A DNA stretch of 64,000 nt from Sporopachydermia quercuum (GCA_001599295.1 BCGN01000009.1:372001-436000); one strand, 5' to 3'. Numbered from the stretch's first letter, positions 2,911-59,193 are shown. Numbers and translations are program-made. Notes: generated by a model from the sequence alone, not told the origin.

Positions 2911-3738
2911 ATGTTTCTCAGAAGTGTCTCCAGAACGCAAGTTCGACTGACTAGCCAGAAGTCAGTAGTTTCAACTCTTTCCAAAACTTCAACTTACAAG
3001 ATCGTCAGTGTTAGATACTTCAATCAATCACAAAAGATAGAGGACTTCAGGTCATGGTTTAAACAGCTTTCAAGCTTGAAAAAAGCCAAAGAAGAATCTG
3101 CAGCAGAACCAGAAGTATCCAGTAGAGAACTTATGCATAAACTTGAAGGTACATCATCAAAAGACGAAGAAGCTTTAGATCTCGTGAAGAGTTCTTCGTC
3201 GGAAATCAAGAATGGTCAAGTTACTCAATTACCTATCATAGGACATGTTCCGAAACCCAAAAAGCGTACTATTGCTGACATAGATTTTGATATCAGGAGT
3301 TGGAAGAATGATACGCCTGTAGATAGCATGGCTCAAGTGGATATTATACTATATAGTGCTTATCAGCAAATAATCAGAGGGGTTCCCGAGACAGAAATAC
3401 AATCAGGGACTCAATCAACCGAAAATGAACAATTGGTTTCTCCTGAAGAGTTAGACTATACTTTTGAAAATTTTGACACATTCTTCAACCTTGTTAAGGA
3501 GGTTCAAAAAGCATCAGGTGTAACTATCCCTGATTTGGAAATAACTAAGATGAAAAAGTTTAAAGACTTGAGAAATTACTTTCTTTACAAGGTTATTCGC
3601 GGACCTCATTTCGATGAAAGACAACCTGATGCTGTTTATCTTGACCCTAGTGAATTCGAAGGAACAAATGTTTGTATAGTTCCAGAGAGGAAGAAGGGTG
3701 CTTTCAGAAAGTTGTATAAAGAAGCTCTAAATGCTTGA
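2911..3738 (+). CDS. MRPL13: probable mitochondrial large-subunit ribosomal protein mL50
   Basis: Ser/Arg/Thr-rich, acid-free N-terminal presequence; C-terminal FNLVKEVQKASGVTIPDLEITKMKKFKDLRNYF resembles the mL50 domain. Confidence 0.6.
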   Translation: MFLRSVSRTQVRLTSQKSVVSTLSKTSTYKIVSVRYFNQSQKIEDFRSWFKQLSSLKKAKEESAAEPEVSSRELMHKLEGTSSKDEEALDLVKSSSSEIKNGQVTQLPIIGHVPKPKKRTIADIDFDIRSWKNDTPVDSMAQVDIILYSAYQQIIRGVPETEIQSGTQSTENEQLVSPEELDYTFENFDTFFNLVKEVQKASGVTIPDLEITKMKKFKDLRNYFLYKVIRGPHFDERQPDAVYLDPSEFEGTNVCIVPERKKGAFRKLYKEALNA

Positions 3739-13285: not shown

Positions 13286-14128
13286 ATGTCAGAAAGTGCT
13301 CCACCGTTAGGAACAATTGAAAAAGACTTGATAAGTCTTTCACATGATTCTGCAAGTGCAGAGAAATTGACTTCAGAGAGGTACTCTGTATCCAAAGACA
13401 GCAGACCGTATCTAAATCTACTACCAGCAACTACGGAAAGCAAACCTATAGAGAATAAAGGAACATCTATAACACATAGCAAACAAGTAAAGGAGAGGAA
13501 ACAAAATACTAGGACATCATTAAGGAAATTTATTAAAGAAGGATTAATAGCTACAAGAGCAAATAAGAACGATAAAGAATCAAAACTTGCCCAACTACCC
13601 CAGTATACAGATTATCTTCCTATGCTGTCTTTATGGGAACAGTACATGTCAACCATGTTATTTCCAAGTGGTCATAATGGTGTTATTTCTAATAATTTAT
13701 TAGGGAAACTTGCAAGTGCTGATTATCATGGTGCAGAATTGACAGTTATAAGCAGCAGGAATCCTTCACAAGTTGGTATTAGAGGTATAGTATTGGTTGA
13801 TGGAAGGTCAAGTTTTGTTCTAGCTGTCGAAAAAGATGTATGGAGGAAAGATGTCAAATGGTATAAAGATGGTAAGAATAGAGAAGAAGAAAACAAGATA
13901 GAACCAGGAGGTATCAAAGTGATTGAGAAGAAAGGAGCCCAGTTCAAGTTTTCGGTACCCGTTTCCAATCTTAGCAAGAAAGNTATACCCGAAAATGGCA
14001 TTGACGATCTTGATGTTGAGATACAGGAGAAGAGCGTTTCATTTTGTATAATGGGCGCTAGATTTAGATATAGGACAGCCGATAGAAGTGGCCGGAAATT
14101 TAAGAGNCATTCTGTTGACGATTTATAA
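13286..14128 (+). CDS. POP4: RNase P/MRP subunit Pop4 (Rpp29)
   Basis: LWEQYM, KLASADYHGAELTVISSRNPSQVGIRGIV, GARFRYRTADRSGRKFK. Confidence 0.92.
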   Translation: MSESAPPLGTIEKDLISLSHDSASAEKLTSERYSVSKDSRPYLNLLPATTESKPIENKGTSITHSKQVKERKQNTRTSLRKFIKEGLIATRANKNDKESKLAQLPQYTDYLPMLSLWEQYMSTMLFPSGHNGVISNNLLGKLASADYHGAELTVISSRNPSQVGIRGIVLVDGRSSFVLAVEKDVWRKDVKWYKDGKNREEENKIEPGGIKVIEKKGAQFKFSVPVSNLSKKXIPENGIDDLDVEIQEKSVSFCIMGARFRYRTADRSGRKFKXHSVDDL

Positions 14129-14570: not shown

Positions 14571-15179
14571 TCAAGCATCTCGTTTTTTCTTTTGCATGTT
14601 TTTATTTTTCTTTTTATTTCTTTGGGTTTTGAGAAACTCATGTTCGTCCGCGTAGTCCAAGAATTCAGAGTCCAAAATATCAAGTAGTTTATCGTTTTGT
14701 CTTTTCTGGTTCATGCCAAGAGTGTTTGCCATCTCCAAATCCATCAATTCTGACTCACTAAGATCTTTAGCCTTAGATGAATCAACACGAAGCCTTTGTT
14801 TGGGTTGCGGCTTAGTAATCTTGGAAGAGGTTTGTTGTTGACTTTTACCAAGGGATGCAGCTTCTGCGTAGCTAAGAGATCTAACAGCTACATCTGCAAA
14901 ACCCTCCTTCTCCAGATCAGTGACAACTATGACTTTTCTGGTTGTTTCTTGACTGCCAACAAGAGCGGCCGAGTCATTATTCTCCTCCACAATGTTCTCT
15001 TTTGGCTTTGAGAATGGGGATAGGAAAAATGAACTCCAGCTTCTGTTAGGAGTATTCTTGACAGGATTGTTGAAAACCCTCATAGCATCTGCCTCGGCTG
15101 ATTCAAGTTTTCTTAGTTCTACCACCTTGTTTACTACCTGAGCTGCAGTAACAGCAGTAGAAAGTGAAGCCATGTTCAT
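14571..15179 (-). CDS. uncharacterised 202 aa protein, probably largely disordered
   Basis: Clean 609 nt ATG-initiated ORF with typical coding composition; basic C-terminus; no family recognised. Confidence 0.7.
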   Translation of the reverse strand: MNMASLSTAVTAAQVVNKVVELRKLESAEADAMRVFNNPVKNTPNRSWSSFFLSPFSKPKENIVEENNDSAALVGSQETTRKVIVVTDLEKEGFADVAVRSLSYAEAASLGKSQQQTSSKITKPQPKQRLRVDSSKAKDLSESELMDLEMANTLGMNQKRQNDKLLDILDSEFLDYADEHEFLKTQRNKKKNKNMQKKKRDA

Positions 15180-49157: not shown

Positions 49158-50367
49158 ATGCCAGAACTTGGTGAGGTATGAATCACTTTTATTCACTGCA
49201 TGTTTTACTGTATTGATTGGTTCCTTACATGTAGCGTGATATCTATCCAATCAATTTATCATTAATCTCTTATTCTAACTGTCGAAATAGGTTGCCCATG
49301 CTTCAGCGCTATTGTCAAGATTCCTGAAAGACCATGTGATAAGATCGGTTGCAGTTGCTGATGATCCTATTGTTTTCCAGAAAGAACCTGCTGATAAAAT
49401 CCAAAATGCGTTGTCAAATGCATTCGTAGAATCAGTAGGTACTCAGGGAAAATATTTCTGGTTCAGATATAGAAAACAGTTTGATGGTCCGTCTACCAAA
49501 CGAAAGAAACCTAACAAGAAATTCTTGTCTTCTTCTTCAAAGTCAAAATCAGAAGGTACATTGAAAACAGATAGTGTTGTGTTAATGCATTTTGGTATGA
49601 CAGGCTGGATCAAAGTCAAAGGGGTCAGAACACATATGTTAGTTATGGAAAATGGTGGAGATAAGAAAGCACAAGAATTATTGAATGCAAAAATTGAACC
49701 AGAAAATGAAGATCTAAAAGTAGCAGATGAGAAGAAAGATGCATTAGGTGAATTAGAGTTTGTTGAAGAAGAGGAGTGGCCACCTAGATTTGAGAAAATG
49801 ATGCTTACAACTGAAAAAGATGATGAAATATGTTTTGTAGATGCCAGAAGACTAGGAAGAATCAGAATCTATGAAGATTTACTGAAAGAGGAAGATGGAG
49901 AAGATGAATTGATTGCTTCAATTCCTTACCTATCAGCATTAGGTCCTGACTTCTCAAAAGATAATAAACGTAGATGGGATTTTGATCAGTTTAAAGAAAA
50001 AGTATCTAAAAAGAAGGTTCCTATTAAATCATTATTGCTTGACCAAACTTTCTTTTCGGGGGTCGGAAATTGGATGGGTGATGAAATCTTATATCATTCA
50101 AGAATTCATCCTCAGACTTATGCTAATGTTTTATCAGATGATGAATTGAAAGTGCTATACAAAAATTTGATCATGGTATGTGAGACAAGTGCGCAATATG
50201 GTGGAAATGTGTTGAAACTACCAGAAAATTGGTTGATGCCATATAGATGGGGAAAAAGAAAGAAGAATGAGAAGTCATATACAAAAGATGGGTTAGAGAT
50301 AAGTCATGTTTCTGTTGGAGGTCGTACTAGTTCTTTTGTTCCTAAGTTGCAAAAGGTTAAGAAATAG
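49158..50367 (+). CDS. FPG1: Fpg/Nei-family DNA glycosylase (fungal/plant zincless-finger type); exons 49158-49175, 49291-50367
   Basis: Splicing gives MPELGE|VAHA (catalytic Pro2-Glu3); GKYFW, MHFGMTG, DARRLGR, H2TH IKSLLLDQTFFSGVGNWMGDEILY, VGGRTSSFVPKLQK. Confidence 0.93.
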
Positions 50368-51055: not shown

Positions 51056-53017
51056 TCATATAAATGCCAGCGGTACCATTGAAGGTCTTCCATGGGCACA
51101 TTGGAAAGGTAGTTGACATAAACCAAGTCCTCGGATCAAATCAGAGCATTCATCTTTTGTTAATTCATCACCAAATTTAATAGCATATCTACAAGCTTTC
51201 ATATTTATTAGATTCAATATTCCTCTAGGACATGATTTCAATGCTTTGATCCAATTTAGTTCAGCATTCTCATCATTATGGAAAACACTAAGTTTAATAC
51301 TAATCTTGACTTTATTAGCTAGATCCTCAATATAGTCAACGACCAGAGTTTCTATGAATTTTTCATCAGCAATATTTCTTTCATAGATAAAATAAGGAAC
51401 AGTAAAAATTGTTAATATATATGTGTCATTGATTCCTAACGGCGAACGTATATGATTAGTTGTGAAGAAAATACCCCATTGTCTGAAAAGTTCATTATAA
51501 GACCGGGCTAATAAAAATTGTGACGATGATAAGGAAATAAGAGTTGGCTCCTTTAAACTTGTTAGAGTTATGTTGAATATGTTAGATATATTTGAGTTCG
51601 GTTGTGGACTATCAAAATCAGTACTATTATCCAGTCTACTCAGATTCTCAAAATTCGCAGCACAGGATTTAATATAGTGCTGATAGTACTTTTCTACTTT
51701 AATCCGCTCATCGGAGGCATGTTGATCAAAACATACAATTACTTTCTCATGTTNTCCCTTGTCAATGGTATTAGATGTTCTCGTTACTTTTACTAGTATG
51801 AATTTCTTATCGAATTGTTGTAATATCTGAACACTTTGTAAATCATTCTTCGTGATAAATTGTTTATCCACAAAAAAATGAGGATTTGAATAATATTGAG
51901 AAAGCTCGTATTTGGCACTAGTAAAGTGATTTAGTGATTGTGAACTCAATTCATTGGCCGAATTAGCATTCATATTTAATCTCCGTTTCTTCTTAGAACT
52001 CGATTTATTAGGTGATGTATCCTGTAGAACAGCTTTAAAAGCAGCTGACAGTAATTCTGTAATTATTGGTGCAAGAGACGTCTCGTAAATCGTCTTGAAA
52101 TTATCTTGAAACATCTCATCCTCTAGCACTTGTCCATTTATAAGAATCAAATATGAGCATTTGGAGATGTCCGTAGAACTTTCTATCATCTTTTCAATTG
52201 CCACATTAACTAGACGATTATCTAAAAGTCTGTTATTGAGAAAGACACTATGGATTCCTGTCAGACCATCTATTATCATTCCATGAGCTTTGATATTTTT
52301 CAAGCTAGCATCCACTTCTTTGAAACAGTGCCCATGTTGCTCCAAACTTGGGAATAAACTTCTAACTACCGTCATAAATCTATTTTTACTTAAAGGGTTA
52401 ACTAAAATGTTCTCTGGTATACAGAATTGCTGAGTTTTATTTTTGAATGCCAGTTTAAAATCAATACTGAGATCTGCCTTCCAGGCCATGAAGATGAGCC
52501 AGTTCTTCAAGTAATTCAAATCATCAGAAGATAACAACCCTCTCTCTAAAATTTCTTGTTTTCGAACAGGATAGTTTTCGAATAGAGCTCTGATTTTTAC
52601 CTCAGTGCCAGAAGGAAAAGGAAACCATTTTATCTCGCGAATAGCTTTGGTTCCTTGTTTGAAATATGTACGAGCAGCACTTCCCTCACTGCATCTGTCC
52701 CATTTACTAGTGATTTCTAATCTTGCAAGTTCANGTATGCTCCATAGCGTTTCACCACGATACCCATATGTTTCTAGGTTCAATTTTTTGGATGTGAAGT
52801 TCCTTTTACCAACTTTAGACAGCTCATCTTTGGATATACCAGTCCCGTTGTCTATAACTTGGATTTCAGTATCAGATACTTGAATACCAATAAAAGAAGC
52901 ATTGGCATCAACAGAATTTTGAACTAATTCGACAAGCAGAACCGCAATACTAAAAATCCTGGTTTGAGCCCTTAATATTGATATTACAGAATCATTCAAT
53001 GCTCTAATACCGGACAT
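51056..53017 (-). CDS. MLH3: MutL homolog Mlh3 (MutL-gamma endonuclease subunit)
   Basis: GHKL motifs ELVQNSVDA, DNGTGI, TSK, YGYRGET; C-terminal QFDKKFI, DQHASDERIKVE, ACRYAIKFGD, PFQCAHGRPS. Confidence 0.92.
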   Translation of the reverse strand: MSGIRALNDSVISILRAQTRIFSIAVLLVELVQNSVDANASFIGIQVSDTEIQVIDNGTGISKDELSKVGKRNFTSKKLNLETYGYRGETLWSIXELARLEITSKWDRCSEGSAARTYFKQGTKAIREIKWFPFPSGTEVKIRALFENYPVRKQEILERGLLSSDDLNYLKNWLIFMAWKADLSIDFKLAFKNKTQQFCIPENILVNPLSKNRFMTVVRSLFPSLEQHGHCFKEVDASLKNIKAHGMIIDGLTGIHSVFLNNRLLDNRLVNVAIEKMIESSTDISKCSYLILINGQVLEDEMFQDNFKTIYETSLAPIITELLSAAFKAVLQDTSPNKSSSKKKRRLNMNANSANELSSQSLNHFTSAKYELSQYYSNPHFFVDKQFITKNDLQSVQILQQFDKKFILVKVTRTSNTIDKGXHEKVIVCFDQHASDERIKVEKYYQHYIKSCAANFENLSRLDNSTDFDSPQPNSNISNIFNITLTSLKEPTLISLSSSQFLLARSYNELFRQWGIFFTTNHIRSPLGINDTYILTIFTVPYFIYERNIADEKFIETLVVDYIEDLANKVKISIKLSVFHNDENAELNWIKALKSCPRGILNLINMKACRYAIKFGDELTKDECSDLIRGLGLCQLPFQCAHGRPSMVPLAFI

Positions 53018-55107: not shown

Positions 55108-55998
55108 TCACACTTTTGTTGGAGCGAAATCTTTACTGTAGTTGTTAGTACCAGGCAACTCACGACTTGCTCTTCCCCAATCAAACTTCCTGTTAGAATT
55201 CTCCACCCAAGAAGAATTATTAAATGGCCTCTCCATATTAATTTTAAACAAACGCCGCACTGCTTTATCCATTGACATTTGGAATTCATCATAATCCTCT
55301 TTGCTATAAGGGACATGATCAGCTCTAATTAAATACACACCTCTTAATGTATAAGCTCTACCTTTTTCTTTCTGCTCAAGCTTCTCTAATGATGCTGATA
55401 ATGTTTCCAGAATAATTCTCTTCAAGGTTCTTCTGCCGGCTGCGTATTTCATAGGATTTCGAGATCTCTTGCCGGATGCTTTTTCGGTTGATCCCCTCTT
55501 CTGTTTCTCCTTTACCCCACTCCCTCTGAAATTACCTTCAGTGCCTTCACCATATTGGACTAGTAAGCCAAAGGGTGATTTCCGGAAAAGTGATAAGAAA
55601 TGTGCAGTAGGACAGAATTGAAAACGAATATTCCGATCACGATACAACACATCAACCAAACCAGCAGCTCCAAATCGATAGAGATATTCAACACCAGCAG
55701 TTCGAACACCTTTAATGTTTTCATACAAATTAGAGCTTATAGGATGATCAGCGTCATTATAACTTTCTATGGGTTTATAATAGTCATCATTTTCCCTGTC
55801 AATATTCAGATGATTTATTAAAGGTTCAGTGATAAGCAAATCTCTTTCTTGATGTGAATTTAACCGATTTTTCCTTGCGTCTTCATCTGTTCTAACTATT
55901 GAAACAAGAGACCTATAGTAAGCTGTTGATTTGGGCGAAAATAACAATCCTTTTCGTGTCTTCCATAACCTGGGAATCTTTTGTTGAAATACTGACAT
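55108..55998 (-). CDS. uncharacterised basic protein, probably mitochondrial, with an RnpA-like motif
   Basis: 296 aa ORF from the ATG at 55998; Arg/Lys/Ser-rich acid-free N-terminus; KYAAGRRTLKRIILE (see findings). Confidence refers to its being a gene. Confidence 0.8.
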   Translation of the reverse strand: MSVFQQKIPRLWKTRKGLLFSPKSTAYYRSLVSIVRTDEDARKNRLNSHQERDLLITEPLINHLNIDRENDDYYKPIESYNDADHPISSNLYENIKGVRTAGVEYLYRFGAAGLVDVLYRDRNIRFQFCPTAHFLSLFRKSPFGLLVQYGEGTEGNFRGSGVKEKQKRGSTEKASGKRSRNPMKYAAGRRTLKRIILETLSASLEKLEQKEKGRAYTLRGVYLIRADHVPYSKEDYDEFQMSMDKAVRRLFKINMERPFNNSSWVENSNRKFDWGRASRELPGTNNYSKDFAPTKV

Positions 55999-57771: not shown

Positions 57772-59193
57772 ATGGCGAGCTCGAATGCTTCATCGGCTCC
57801 CATTGATATAACAACTGGAAGCTCATTATACAGTAATAGTAATAGCATTGGGTTCAACCAGTATAGCACGGGCAATTCAGATAACTCATTATTATCAACG
57901 TCACAAATCGACCAACACCAACTTCAACAATCCAGCATACCCAACAGCACACAGTCGAAAGCTGCTGCAATTCCAAACCGAATACGTAGAGAATCATTTG
58001 CTCATTCGCAAGGTGTAGGTGGTGTGTCATGGGGAACTATGTCTGTTGGATCATGGCTTAGAGATGAAGTTATGACATTACATCAAATGAATCAGCATAC
58101 CAGTAGTTCAGCGAATCCTCAAAGGATGCTTTCTGGCTCCTTTTCTTATGCAAGTGGAAGTGGTATAGGTAGTTTTTCTGGCCCAGCAGGCGATATAGAT
58201 ATTAACATGAACTCTCCACCTGCTTTTCCATCTGCATATCTACCCAACTTAGAAGCTAATTATTGTAAAGATTATAGCTGTTGCGGACAGCTTCTATCGA
58301 ATTTGCATGAATTATTACGACATTATGAAGAAGCTCATGTTCAAACAGCATTGGATGTGAATGTGAACAGTAATAACACTACGAAGAAACGTTATGGCGT
58401 ACTAGATGCTGTTTCCACAAATGATGTTTTTCTCAGCATAGCCCCAACAACAGGATTTGGTCTTCCCAATAATGTGAATAACAACAGAAACGTTAGAACA
58501 ACTTCAGGAAGTAGCGTAAGAAGTATTAAGACGGGAAATAATCAAAGACAGAGAAATTCTAAGGATTTGGGCTCAAATGGTCGTTCAGTCAACAATATCG
58601 CAAGTAATCCTTCATCGAATATTGTTGTGAACAAAAATAATAAGGACTCTGTGATAATTGATGAAGACGAGGGTAGTGAGGACGAACGTGATGATGACGA
58701 CGATGACGATGAAACAATGACTGATGGGCATTGGGATATAAACAATTCTAGTTCCCGTCAAATGAATTCACATGCTACTAATTCCAGAAATCAAATATCA
58801 AACTTCTCAATGATATCCAATGGTAATTCTTTATCAGGAACCAAAATTTCAAGAAANACTACAAATGGTGATGGTAGNGATGATGAACTTTACGTGAATG
58901 ACCCATCACGACAGCTNTTCGTGGGTCAAGAAGGTGCAGTCGGAAGACCATTCAAGTGTCCTGTGAGAGGATGTGATAAGAGTTATAAAAATCAAAACGG
59001 ATTGAAGTATCATAGACTACATGGTCATCGTAACCAAATGCTGCATTTAAATGCGGACGGTACATATTCTGTGGTCGATCCTGATAGTGAAGAAATGCTA
59101 GAAAGAGATAAACCTTATAGATGTGAGGTATGTGGTAGAAGATATAAGAATCTTAATGGGTTAAAGTATCATCGTGGGCATTCTACTCACTAA
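57772..59193 (+). CDS. SFP1: split zinc-finger transcription factor Sfp1
   Basis: RRESFAHSQGVGGVSWG, YLPNLEANYCKDYSCCG..LHELLRHYEEAH, PFKCPVRGCDKSYKNQNGLKYH, KPYRCEVCGRRYKNLNGLKYHRGH. Confidence 0.96.
   Translation: MASSNASSAPIDITTGSSLYSNSNSIGFNQYSTGNSDNSLLSTSQIDQHQLQQSSIPNSTQSKAAAIPNRIRRESFAHSQGVGGVSWGTMSVGSWLRDEVMTLHQMNQHTSSSANPQRMLSGSFSYASGSGIGSFSGPAGDIDINMNSPPAFPSAYLPNLEANYCKDYSCCGQLLSNLHELLRHYEEAHVQTALDVNVNSNNTTKKRYGVLDAVSTNDVFLSIAPTTGFGLPNNVNNNRNVRTTSGSSVRSIKTGNNQRQRNSKDLGSNGRSVNNIASNPSSNIVVNKNNKDSVIIDEDEGSEDERDDDDDDDETMTDGHWDINNSSSRQMNSHATNSRNQISNFSMISNGNSLSGTKISRXTTNGDGXDDELYVNDPSRQXFVGQEGAVGRPFKCPVRGCDKSYKNQNGLKYHRLHGHRNQMLHLNADGTYSVVDPDSEEMLERDKPYRCEVCGRRYKNLNGLKYHRGHSTH

What the first reader, a model, noticed from the sequence alone, without database searches (positions are those of the whole stretch)
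55108..55998. Orphan ORF resembling a bacterial-type RNase P protein (RnpA): candidate partner of mitochondrial RNase P RNA
Seen: KYAAGRRTLKRIILE (about 55405-55449) aligns without gaps to the RnpA RNR motif K-x-A-x-x-R-N-x-x-K-R-x-x-R-E, keeping K, A, R, K-R and E, with N and the last R substituted. It is followed by a short hydrophobic strand (GVYLIR) and an amphipathic helix (EDYDEFQMSMDKAVRRL). It is preceded by a helix-Gly-strand segment (VEYLYRFG..VLYRDRNIRFQF). This is the element order of RnpA. The N-terminus looks like a mitochondrial presequence. Known: many yeast mtDNAs encode an RNase P RNA (rnpB/RPM1), and the S. cerevisiae partner Rpm2 is unrelated to RnpA. Inference: this may be a diverged endosymbiont-type RnpA serving mitochondrial tRNA 5' processing.
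Basis: partly seen in the sequence, partly recalled or inferred. Interest (0 to 1): 0.75.

Follow-up and report, generated by a model that had tools for sequence, protein, structure and literature searches.

The report
Diverged bacterial-type RNase P protein in yeast

Summary
The ORF at 55108-55998 (-) is real. It encodes 296 aa with an acid-free, basic N-terminus and has 12 remote relatives (E 1e-8 to 8e-4). The named ones come from early-branching budding yeasts (Blastobotrys, Geotrichum), so it is not an orphan.

Pfam does not recognise the protein. Three independent kinds of test still point to bacterial RnpA:
[quoted passage not shown] In each, the three best of 48,161 PDB representatives are RNase P proteins (Z 6.3-7.3). 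On re-alignment the top 8 rows are all RnpA (best Z 8.2, 109 of 114 residues), then a drop to 5.5.
- Profile: a profile-profile comparison with 30 proteobacterial RnpA domains scores 32.1 (P about 9e-5). None of 253 shuffled controls exceeded 22.9.
- Language-model neighbours: 29 of 30 named clusters carry PF00825, all listed ones fungal.

In the family the RNR helix keeps only A-x-x-R (16 of 16) and two later arginines.

RnpA-type ancestry is well supported. Mitochondrial location and service to the mtDNA-encoded RNase P RNA are inferred, not shown. My paper searches found no report of a fungal RnpA.

The parts
55108..55998 (-). Whole ORF, 296 codons plus a TGA stop. It starts at the first ATG of the open frame. 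It is a nuclear gene among ordinary yeast nuclear genes.
   Evidence: neighbours; 12 remote homologs
55888..55998 (-). Residues 1-37: basic, Ser/Thr-rich and free of acidic residues. Looks like a mitochondrial presequence (inferred).
   Evidence: 8 K/R and 0 D/E. In 10 of 16 family members the first acidic residue lies at position 25 or later. pLDDT is below 50 here. No targeting predictor was available.
55744..55887 (-). Residues 38-85: poorly conserved linker of low confidence between the presequence and the core.
   Evidence: pLDDT below 50 over 46-79; gappy alignment
55234..55731 (-). [quoted passage not shown]
   Evidence: secondary structure.: top 3 of 48,161 chains are RnpA, Z 7.2, 6.5 and 6.3.: top 8 rows are RnpA; the best is 4jg4 with Z 8.2, rmsd 3.2 and 109 of 114 residues over model 90-255.
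55672..55701 (-). Residues 100-109: helix alpha1. In RnpA this helix forms one wall of the 5'-leader cleft. A V-x-x-x-Y pair is conserved in the family.
   Evidence: (Y107 position Y or F in 15 of 16, V103 position V in 9 of 16). The cleft role is inferred from the RnpA topology described in PMC4919922.
55552..55650 (-). Residues 117-149: strands beta1 to beta3, with the family-invariant R139-K140 between beta2 and beta3.
   Evidence: (R and K each in 16 of 16)
55462..55545 (-). Residues 152-179: Gly/Lys/Arg/Glu-rich disordered insertion between beta3 and alpha2. Bacterial RnpA has no equivalent.
   Evidence: pLDDT below 50 over 152-179; this stretch is the gap in the hhalign alignment
55366..55449 (-).
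   Evidence: A186 aligns with E. coli A59 and R189 with R62; both are invariant in 16 of 16. K193-R194 align with K66-R67, L197 sits at the R70 position and E198 at E71.
55324..55341 (-). Residues 220-225: strand beta4. It aligns to the RnpA D-x-V-h-h-x-(K/R) strand.
   Evidence: (G220 invariant; D84-equivalent position D/E in 12 of 16; K/R90-equivalent position in 12 of 16)
55231..55302 (-). Residues 233-256: amphipathic helix alpha3, the last element of the RnpA core.
55111..55230 (-). Residues 257-296: family-specific C-terminal extension with short helices and a conserved W-V-x-x-x-N-x-K patch. Bacterial RnpA has no counterpart.

Best explanation
The gene encodes a nuclear-encoded, probably mitochondrion-targeted, strongly diverged relative of the bacterial RNase P protein RnpA. 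It belongs to a family found so far in early-branching budding yeasts.

Proposed mechanism, by analogy with RnpA and inferred:
- After import and removal of the basic presequence, the core domain (residues about 90-255) binds the mtDNA-encoded RNase P RNA through the arginine-bearing face of helix alpha2. The family motif there is A-x-x-R-x4-(R/K/Q)-x2-R.
- The cleft formed by helix alpha1 and the sheet holds the 5' leader of mitochondrial pre-tRNAs.
- This raises substrate and metal affinity of a much reduced ribozyme.
- The additions that bacteria lack are the basic disordered loop 152-179 and the N- and C-terminal extensions. They would supply extra RNA contacts that compensate for lost RNA elements.

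Shown: the ORF, its family, the fold prediction, the profile similarity and the motif register.

Inferred: homology by descent from the endosymbiont's rnpA, mitochondrial location, binding to the RNase P RNA, and a role in tRNA 5' processing.
For: 1. Fold.
- In a Foldseek-independent search of 48,161 PDB representatives, the three best chains are all RNase P proteins: 1nz0 Z 7.2, rmsd 3.1, 106 of 109 residues; 2ljp Z 6.5; 6ov1 Z 6.3. The next is 5.4.
- Re-alignment of Foldseek's 465 candidates puts 8 RnpA entries on top. The best is 4jg4 with Z 8.2, rmsd 3.2 and 109 of 114 residues; the holoenzyme chain 3q1q_A scores 7.3. The next row is 5.5.
- A second model, of relative P0009 (21% identical), gives the same top three: Z 7.3, 7.2 and 6.9, next 5.6.

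2. Sequence.
- hhalign of the family against 30 Pseudomonadota RnpA domains gives score 32.8, P 1.7e-4 for the whole alignment.
- For the realigned domain it gives score 32.1, P 8.9e-5.
- Controls: reversed target 13.5; 118 column shuffles with a maximum of 17.4; 135 block shuffles with a maximum of 22.9. None of the 253 reaches the real score.

3. Weak direct hits, only to this family.
- PF00825: E 0.062, 13.8 bits, in 1 of 16 members scanned. Residues 165-222 match profile positions 52-108.
- TIGR00188 rnpA: 2 of 16 members, best E 0.035. It is the only NCBIfam family hit by more than one member.

4. ESM Atlas.
- 16 of 30 nearest clusters carry PF00825 for the whole protein.
- 29 of 30 named clusters do for residues 86-290. 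These include fungal clusters of 254 aa (Zoopagomycota, PF00825 on 82% of members, score 0.85) and 286 aa (Basidiomycota, 18%, score 0.90).

5. Conservation.
- The A59- and R62-equivalent positions are invariant in 16 of 16.
- The R70-equivalent is basic in 14 of 16, the R67-equivalent in 11 of 16, and the D84-equivalent is acidic in 12 of 16.

6. Targeting.
- The N-terminus is acid-free and basic here and in most relatives.

7. Partner.
- Blastobotrys adeninivorans holds a family member (P0005). Its mtDNA encodes the RNase P RNA (PMC4022394, passage read).
- Reviews state that fungal mt RNase P proteins other than Rpm2 are unidentified and that Rpm2 is confined to close relatives of S. cerevisiae (PMC3790967, passages; PMC6097661, passage).
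Against: - Pfam gives no PF00825 match for this protein at E up to 10. The best family member stays below the 22.3-bit cut-off.
- Foldseek E-values are not significant: the best RnpA rows have E 0.13-0.4, although probability reaches 0.97 for 4jg4 with the second model.
- Z scores of 7-8 lie in the range the tool calls middling.
- The N-terminal half of the domain (86-152) has no sequence signal against RnpA on its own (P 0.13). The sequence evidence therefore rests on alpha2-beta4-alpha3.
- The canonical N and second R of 'RNR' are present in only 2 and 3 of 16 members. This protein lacks the R70-equivalent arginine.
- Both models use shallow, overlapping alignments (13 and 16 sequences), so they are not fully independent.
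- The two Atlas calls carry no E-values.
- Nothing here shows mitochondrial import, RNA binding or expression.
- The organism's mtDNA could not be examined.
- Co-occurrence with rnpB is documented for one species only.
Confidence: 0.6

Rival explanations
1. The protein descends from RnpA, or at least has its fold, but has been put to another mitochondrial RNA task and no longer works with RNase P RNA. Examples would be ribosome assembly, transcript stabilisation or mRNA-specific activation.
For: - The canonical RNR residues are mostly lost.
- Large family-specific additions are present: loop 152-179 and a C-terminal extension with a conserved W-V...N-K patch.
- Budding yeasts are known to use the unrelated Rpm2 (PMC3790967), so an RnpA relic could be free to change function.
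Against: - The two invariant motif residues (A, R) and the later arginines are exactly the ones aligned to RnpA's RNA-binding helix.
- At least one carrier species has a mitochondrial RNase P RNA.
- No other function has any positive evidence here.
Confidence: 0.2
2. The resemblance is analogy. The protein would be an unrelated member of the large S5-domain-2-like fold class, like domains of EF-G, Lon, GHMP kinases, GyrB or MutL. It would carry a basic helix that mimics the RNR motif by composition.
For: - Other S5-domain-2-like proteins follow at Z 4-5.6.
- GyrB rows head the Foldseek lists.
- Z of 7-8 is middling by the tool's own note.
- Basic helices are common in mitochondrial RNA-binding proteins.
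Against: - RnpA chains take every top place in three searches, cover 93-97% of the RnpA chain, and stand 1.3-2.7 Z units above the next fold.
- Shuffles that preserve composition never approach the real profile score: 0 of 253, maximum 22.9 against 32.1.
- The only curated families hit at all in the motif region are PF00825 and TIGR00188.
- Atlas neighbours are PF00825 clusters.
Confidence: 0.13
3. The protein is not mitochondrial. For example, it could be a lineage-specific accessory factor of nuclear RNase P/MRP or another nuclear or cytosolic RNA-binding protein.
For: - Basic N-termini also occur in nucleolar proteins.
- No targeting predictor or localisation data were available.
- The protein is basic overall: 54 K/R against 36 D/E.
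Against: - The first 37 residues have no acidic residue, and this holds for most relatives.
- Nuclear RNase P/MRP subunits such as Pop5/Rpp14 are not among the listed structural matches.
- The bacterial-type fold fits an organellar origin.
Confidence: 0.05

Closest known systems
Bacterial RNase P protein RnpA (C5 protein; PF00825, TIGR00188; structures 1a6f, 4jg4, 1nz0, 3q1q_A, 2ljp, 6d1r)
   Same: [quoted passage not shown]
- A basic helix alpha2 with the A-x-x-R...R...R pattern in the RNR register.
- A beta4 signature of D-x-V-h-h-x-(K/R).
- A terminal amphipathic helix.
   Different: - 296 aa rather than about 115-130.
- Has a presequence-like N-terminus, a linker of about 50 residues, a 28-residue disordered basic insertion before alpha2 and a 40-residue C-terminal extension.
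- The Asn and second Arg of RNR are lost.
- Falls below Pfam and NCBIfam cut-offs.
- Encoded in a eukaryotic nucleus.
Nuclear-encoded bacterial-type RnpA of prasinophyte algae (Ostreococcus tauri) and of the jakobid Andalucia godoyi
   Same: A eukaryotic nuclear gene for a diverged RnpA, proposed or shown to serve an organelle-encoded bacterial-type RNase P RNA (PMC4919922, passage; PMC7050145, passages).
   Different: - Those proteins are reported to keep the recognisable RnpA domain (COG0594) and most functional residues; this one does not reach family thresholds.
- The lineage differs: this is fungal, where only Rpm2 is described.
Rpm2, the 105-kDa protein subunit of S. cerevisiae mitochondrial RNase P
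   Same: The proposed role: a nuclear-encoded protein partner of the mtDNA-encoded RNase P RNA in a budding yeast.
   Different: Rpm2 is an unrelated large PPR protein. It is reported only from close relatives of S. cerevisiae (PMC3790967; PMC6097661). The present protein has no PPR or other Pfam match.
Uncharacterised fungal proteins of about 250-290 aa that carry PF00825 (ESM Atlas clusters from Zoopagomycota and Basidiomycota)
   Same: Similar length, fungal origin, and nearest neighbours by language-model features with scores 0.85-0.93. They are probably the better-conserved end of the same family.
   Different: Those clusters are recognised by Pfam (82% and 18% of members); the budding-yeast family is not. 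No alignment between the two groups could be made because the Atlas returns no sequences.

Membership tests
RnpA (bacterial RNase P protein, PF00825 / TIGR00188) | [quoted passage not shown] | tested here: met
   On predicted models only. RnpA chains rank 1-3 of 48,161 for two family members and 1-8 on re-alignment, with the best at Z 8.2, rmsd 3.2 and 109 of 114 residues.
RnpA (bacterial RNase P protein, PF00825 / TIGR00188) | RNR motif at the start of helix alpha2. E. coli numbering A59, R62, N63, R64, K66, R67, R70, E71 is read from the alignment. | tested here: inconclusive
   This protein matches 6 of 8 template positions. Family counts in 16 sequences: A in 16, R62-equivalent in 16, N63-equivalent in 2, R64-equivalent in 3, K66-equivalent basic in 5, R67-equivalent basic in 11, R70-equivalent basic in 14, E71-equivalent acidic in 4. 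A reduced A-x-x-R...R..R core is kept; the eponymous N and second R are not.
RnpA (bacterial RNase P protein, PF00825 / TIGR00188) | Score above the curated family cut-off (PF00825 22.3 bits; TIGR00188) | tested here: not met
   No PF00825 hit for this protein at E up to 10. The best member, P0004, scores 13.8 bits at E 0.062. TIGR00188 hits 2 of 16 members, best E 0.035. I therefore call it RnpA-like, a remote relative, and not a database-recognised member.
RnpA (bacterial RNase P protein, PF00825 / TIGR00188) | Profile-level sequence similarity to RnpA beyond composition | tested here: met
   hhalign score 32.1-32.8, P 0.9-1.7e-4, probability 50-60%. None of 253 shuffled or block-shuffled targets reaches it (maximum 22.9); the reversed target scores 13.5. 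The signal is confined to alpha2-beta4-alpha3.
RnpA (bacterial RNase P protein, PF00825 / TIGR00188) | Central cleft with conserved aromatic residues that hold the pre-tRNA 5' leader | tested here: inconclusive
   Helix alpha1 carries a conserved V-x-x-x-Y pair, and beta1 and beta2 are rich in conserved aromatics. No residue-level superposition was available, and the N-terminal half gives no profile signal.
RnpA (bacterial RNase P protein, PF00825 / TIGR00188) | Binds RNase P RNA and stimulates pre-tRNA 5' cleavage; a partner P RNA gene is present in the same compartment | not testable with these tools
   The genome of the window's organism is not held. [quoted passage not shown]
Rpm2 (yeast mitochondrial RNase P protein) | Large (about 105 kDa) PPR-containing protein | tested here: not met
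   296 aa with no PPR or other Pfam domain.
Eukaryotic/archaeal RNase P/MRP subunits (Pop5/Rpp14, Pop4/Rpp29 and others) | Match to the corresponding Pfam families or structures | tested here: inconclusive
   No Pfam match. None appears in the rows listed. The window's own Pop4/p29 gene lies elsewhere, at 13286-14128.

The most novel reading that the evidence does not exclude
Fungi never lost the endosymbiont's rnpA. A nuclear, mitochondrion-targeted RnpA descendant would be the general protein subunit of fungal mitochondrial RNase P. It would still be recognisable in zygomycete-grade fungi and some basidiomycetes, and diverged beyond database thresholds in early-branching budding yeasts. It would have co-evolved with the shrinking mtDNA-encoded RNase P RNA by gaining basic extensions. 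Rpm2 would then be a late addition or replacement restricted to the Saccharomyces lineage.
Probability: 0.4. Interest if true: 0.8.

Novelty: new variant of a known kind. Interest (0 to 1): 0.66.

Why it matters
RNase P is the textbook ribozyme. Its mitochondrial form in fungi has an RNA that in yeasts is reduced to little more than the P1 and P4 helices, and these RNAs are inactive alone.

Apart from Rpm2 of S. cerevisiae and its close relatives, no fungal mitochondrial RNase P protein has been identified. This is stated in PMC3790967 (2012, passages read). My full-text searches found nothing newer, including reviews up to 2024.

Bacterial-type RnpA in eukaryotes is so far reported only from prasinophyte algae and a jakobid.

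A fungal RnpA descendant would:
- give a concrete gene to delete, tag and reconstitute;
- show how a protein cofactor changes as its ribozyme shrinks;
- revise the account of which endosymbiont RNA-processing components opisthokonts retained.

Tried and rejected
- Word-indexed homolog search with the protein: no hit. With the family alignment it returned only the member P0011.
- Sequence search of PDB chains: only a chance-level SYF2 row at E 0.05. The family profile gave nothing.
- Foldseek against PDB: no row with E up to 0.001 for either model. The decisive information came from the VIA-align searches.
- hhalign of the N-terminal half (86-152) alone: no signal, P 0.13. The low-stringency extension aligned the H-F-L-S-L segment to RnpA helix alpha1, which disagrees with the structural superposition, so I disregard it.
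- Own-genome search: no genome is held for this window. Neither rnpB in the mtDNA nor RPM2 could be sought.
- Expression: no RNA holder listed. Only 3 DNA runs from 2 studies hold the stretch, and they may be its source.
- Metagenome scan for more family members: the 13-sequence alignment was too divergent to seed patterns. A 5-sequence alignment matched 378 stretches, none confirmed.
- Earlier findings of this scan: nothing on this sequence or genome. A word search returned two unrelated notes on mitochondrial rnpB candidates in other genomes.
- CTG-as-Ser decoding would change residues 64 and 197. The 96 CTG codons in 21 ORFs sit largely in hydrophobic, leucine-like contexts, so I kept the standard reading. 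This is an inference, not a test.
- Complex prediction was not used. The proposed partner is an RNA, which the tool does not take.
- Papers not held: Lechner et al. 2015, Jovanovic et al. 2002 and Seif et al. 2003. Any statement in them on fungal RnpA homologs or on rnpB distribution was not seen.

Full report
**The observation**

The minus-strand ORF runs from the ATG at 55998 to the TGA at 55108-55110 and encodes 296 residues. No other ORF above 75 aa overlaps it.

The window is ordinary budding-yeast nuclear DNA of 32-38% G+C. Its genes include:
- a MutL-type ATPase, a pseudouridine synthase, an Fpg-type glycosylase, APC5 and Zn2Cys6 factors;
- Vma12, mL50, an eRF3/Hbs1-type GTPase, carnitine acyltransferase, Pop4/p29, Rpc34 and cyclophilin.

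It matches 6 of 8 fixed positions of the RNR template. It is the only match of 6 or more among 14,425 positions in the window's 45 six-frame ORFs of at least 100 aa. In 20,000 composition-preserving shuffles of the protein, 29 reach 6. The motif is real and mildly unlikely by chance, but it would not carry the claim alone.

**Not an orphan, and not in any curated family**

- Pfam gives nothing relevant at E up to 10.
- PDB sequences give nothing.
- The word-indexed search gives nothing.
- A full HMMER scan of 1.84 billion representatives finds 12 relatives at E 1.1e-8 to 8.1e-4, 24-34% identical over the C-terminal two thirds.

Two of the relatives' clusters carry names: Blastobotrys adeninivorans ARAD1D16104p and a Geotrichum/Galactomyces reessii hypothetical protein. 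The rest are unnamed contigs.

The alignment shows a divergent N-terminus and a conserved body. Invariant residues are P86, G97, R139, K140, P182, A186, R189 and G220.

**Fold**

The AF2 model built from the 13-sequence alignment has a confident core, with pLDDT mostly 80-96 over residues 86-287. The elements in order are helix 100-109; strands 117-120, 124-130 and 143-149; a disordered loop 152-179; helix 186-211; strand 220-226; helix 233-256; and short C-terminal helices. [quoted passage not shown]

Foldseek finds nothing with E up to 0.001. Its weak rows are GyrB transducer domains and RNase P proteins.

The Foldseek-independent search of 48,161 PDB representatives ranks three RNase P proteins first:
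- T. maritima 1nz0: Z 7.2, rmsd 3.1, 106 of 109 residues;
- E. coli 2ljp: Z 6.5;
- S. aureus 6ov1: Z 6.3.

Other S5-domain-2-like proteins follow at 5.4 and below.

Re-aligning Foldseek's 465 candidates puts eight RnpA entries on top. These include B. subtilis 4jg4 (Z 8.2, rmsd 3.2, 109 of 114 residues), 1a6f (Z 8.0) and the holoenzyme chain 3q1q_A (Z 7.3). The next row scores 5.5.

A second model, of relative P0009 (21% identical, 16-sequence alignment, mean pLDDT 74), gives the same top three at Z 7.3, 7.2 and 6.9, with the next at 5.6. Its Foldseek row for 4jg4 has probability 0.97 and target TM 0.69 but E 0.18.

Caveats. The Z values lie in the range the tool calls middling. The two models share most of their alignment. 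These are predictions, not structures.

**Sequence relationship**

I collected 30 RnpA domains from a PF00825 search of 61 Pseudomonadota genomes; all 61 had a match. I aligned them.
- hhalign of the family against this alignment: probability 49.8%, P 1.7e-4, score 32.8.
- With the realigned domain: probability 59.7%, P 8.9e-5, score 32.1.
- Controls: reversed target 13.5; 118 column shuffles with mean 11.3, sd 2.0, maximum 17.4; 135 six-column block shuffles with mean 13.6, sd 2.6, maximum 22.9. None of the 253 reaches the real score.

A186 aligns with E. coli A59, R189 with R62, K193-R194 with K66-R67 and E198 with E71. E. coli numbering is read.

The N-terminal half alone shows no signal (P 0.13).

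Direct profile hits are weak, but they point only to this family:
- PF00825 in P0004 at E 0.062, with residues 165-222 matching profile positions 52-108;
- TIGR00188 in 2 of 16 members, best E 0.035, the only NCBIfam family hit by more than one member.

**Motif conservation** (16 sequences, three of them near-duplicates of others)

| E. coli position | Kept in family |
|---|---|
| A59-equivalent | A in 16 of 16 |
| R62-equivalent | R in 16 of 16 |
| N63-equivalent | N in 2 of 16 |
| R64-equivalent | R in 3 of 16 |
| K66-equivalent | basic in 5 of 16 |
| R67-equivalent | basic in 11 of 16 |
| R70-equivalent | basic in 14 of 16 (this protein has Leu) |
| E71-equivalent | acidic in 4 of 16 |
| D84-equivalent | acidic in 12 of 16 |
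| K/R90-equivalent | basic in 12 of 16 |

The family keeps a reduced A-x-x-R-x4-(R/K/Q)-x2-R helix face and the beta4 signature. It does not keep the full RNR motif.

**Language-model neighbours**

For the whole protein, 16 of the 30 nearest Atlas clusters carry PF00825. The top cluster is a 286-aa Basidiomycota cluster (score 0.93, PF00825 on 18% of members), followed by unnamed Ascomycota clusters.

For residues 86-290 among named clusters, 29 of 30 carry PF00825. These include a 254-aa Zoopagomycota cluster with PF00825 on 82% of members (score 0.85).

These are leads without E-values. They suggest a fungal family of extended RnpA proteins, of which the present one is a diverged end.

**Location and partner (inferred)**

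The first 37 residues have 8 K/R and no acidic residue. In 10 of 16 family members the first acidic residue lies at position 25 or later. No targeting predictor was available.

The organism's genome is not held, so its mtDNA could not be searched for rnpB.

Reviews say the following (passages read):
- rnpB is patchy in ascomycetes and present in all zygomycete mtDNAs sequenced by 2012 (PMC3790967).
- Rpm2 is confined to close relatives of S. cerevisiae.
- Knowledge of other fungal mt RNase P proteins "remains scarce".

**What is known**

Eukaryotic bacterial-type RnpA is reported from prasinophytes and from Andalucia godoyi (PMC7050145; PMC4919922).

Five full-text searches found no paper describing a fungal RnpA homolog. 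The reviews opened, from 2012, 2016, 2018, 2021, 2022 and 2024 (passages only), do not mention one.

Lechner 2015, Seif 2003 and Jovanovic 2002 are not held, so this is not proof of absence from print. Public domain annotation evidently already flags some fungal proteins with PF00825.

**Verdict**

The RnpA-type reading of the fold and ancestry is well supported, at about 0.85. It rests on concordant structural, profile and neighbour evidence, with no rival family.

The functional reading, a mitochondrial RNase P protein subunit, is the most economical inference but is untested. Overall confidence is about 0.6.

Because curated thresholds are not met and the RNR motif is reduced, I file it as an RnpA-like remote relative: a new variant of a known kind. 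I do not file it as a recognised family member.

Noticed in passing
window 13286-14128 (+): A 280-aa ORF with the RNase P/MRP p29 (Pop4/Rpp29) domain (E 7.7e-19). This is the nuclear RNase P/MRP subunit. It lies 41 kb from the RnpA-like gene, which I take as coincidence.
   Followed up: no
window 49585-50367 (+): A 260-aa ORF with the Fpg/Nei H2TH domain. Only the last 44 positions of the N-terminal Fapy glycosylase domain match (profile 74-117 of 117). The annotated start may be too far downstream, or an upstream exon or frame break may exist.
   Followed up: no
window, whole (77 N in all); for example ORFs 51056-53017 (-) and 57772-59193 (+): The window holds 77 N bases. They appear as X in several translations, including the MutL-like and Zn-finger-like proteins. 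None lies in the ORF studied.
   Followed up: partly
window, 21 ORFs of at least 200 aa: CTG makes up 96 of 11,307 codons. It sits largely in hydrophobic, leucine-like contexts, which suggests standard Leu decoding rather than the CTG-Ser code. Residues 64 and 197 of the studied protein are CTG codons.
   Followed up: partly
window 57772-59193 (+): A 473-aa Ser/Asn-rich protein whose C-terminus looks like paired C2H2 zinc fingers (C-x2-C...H-x4-H). It has no Pfam match at E up to 1e-5.
   Followed up: no
window 14571-15179 (-): A 202-aa ORF with no Pfam family at E up to 1e-5. Not examined further.
   Followed up: no
window 2911-3738 (+): A 275-aa ORF with the mitochondrial ribosomal protein L50 domain (E 1.2e-11). 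This is another nuclear gene for a mitochondrial gene-expression component in the same window.
   Followed up: no
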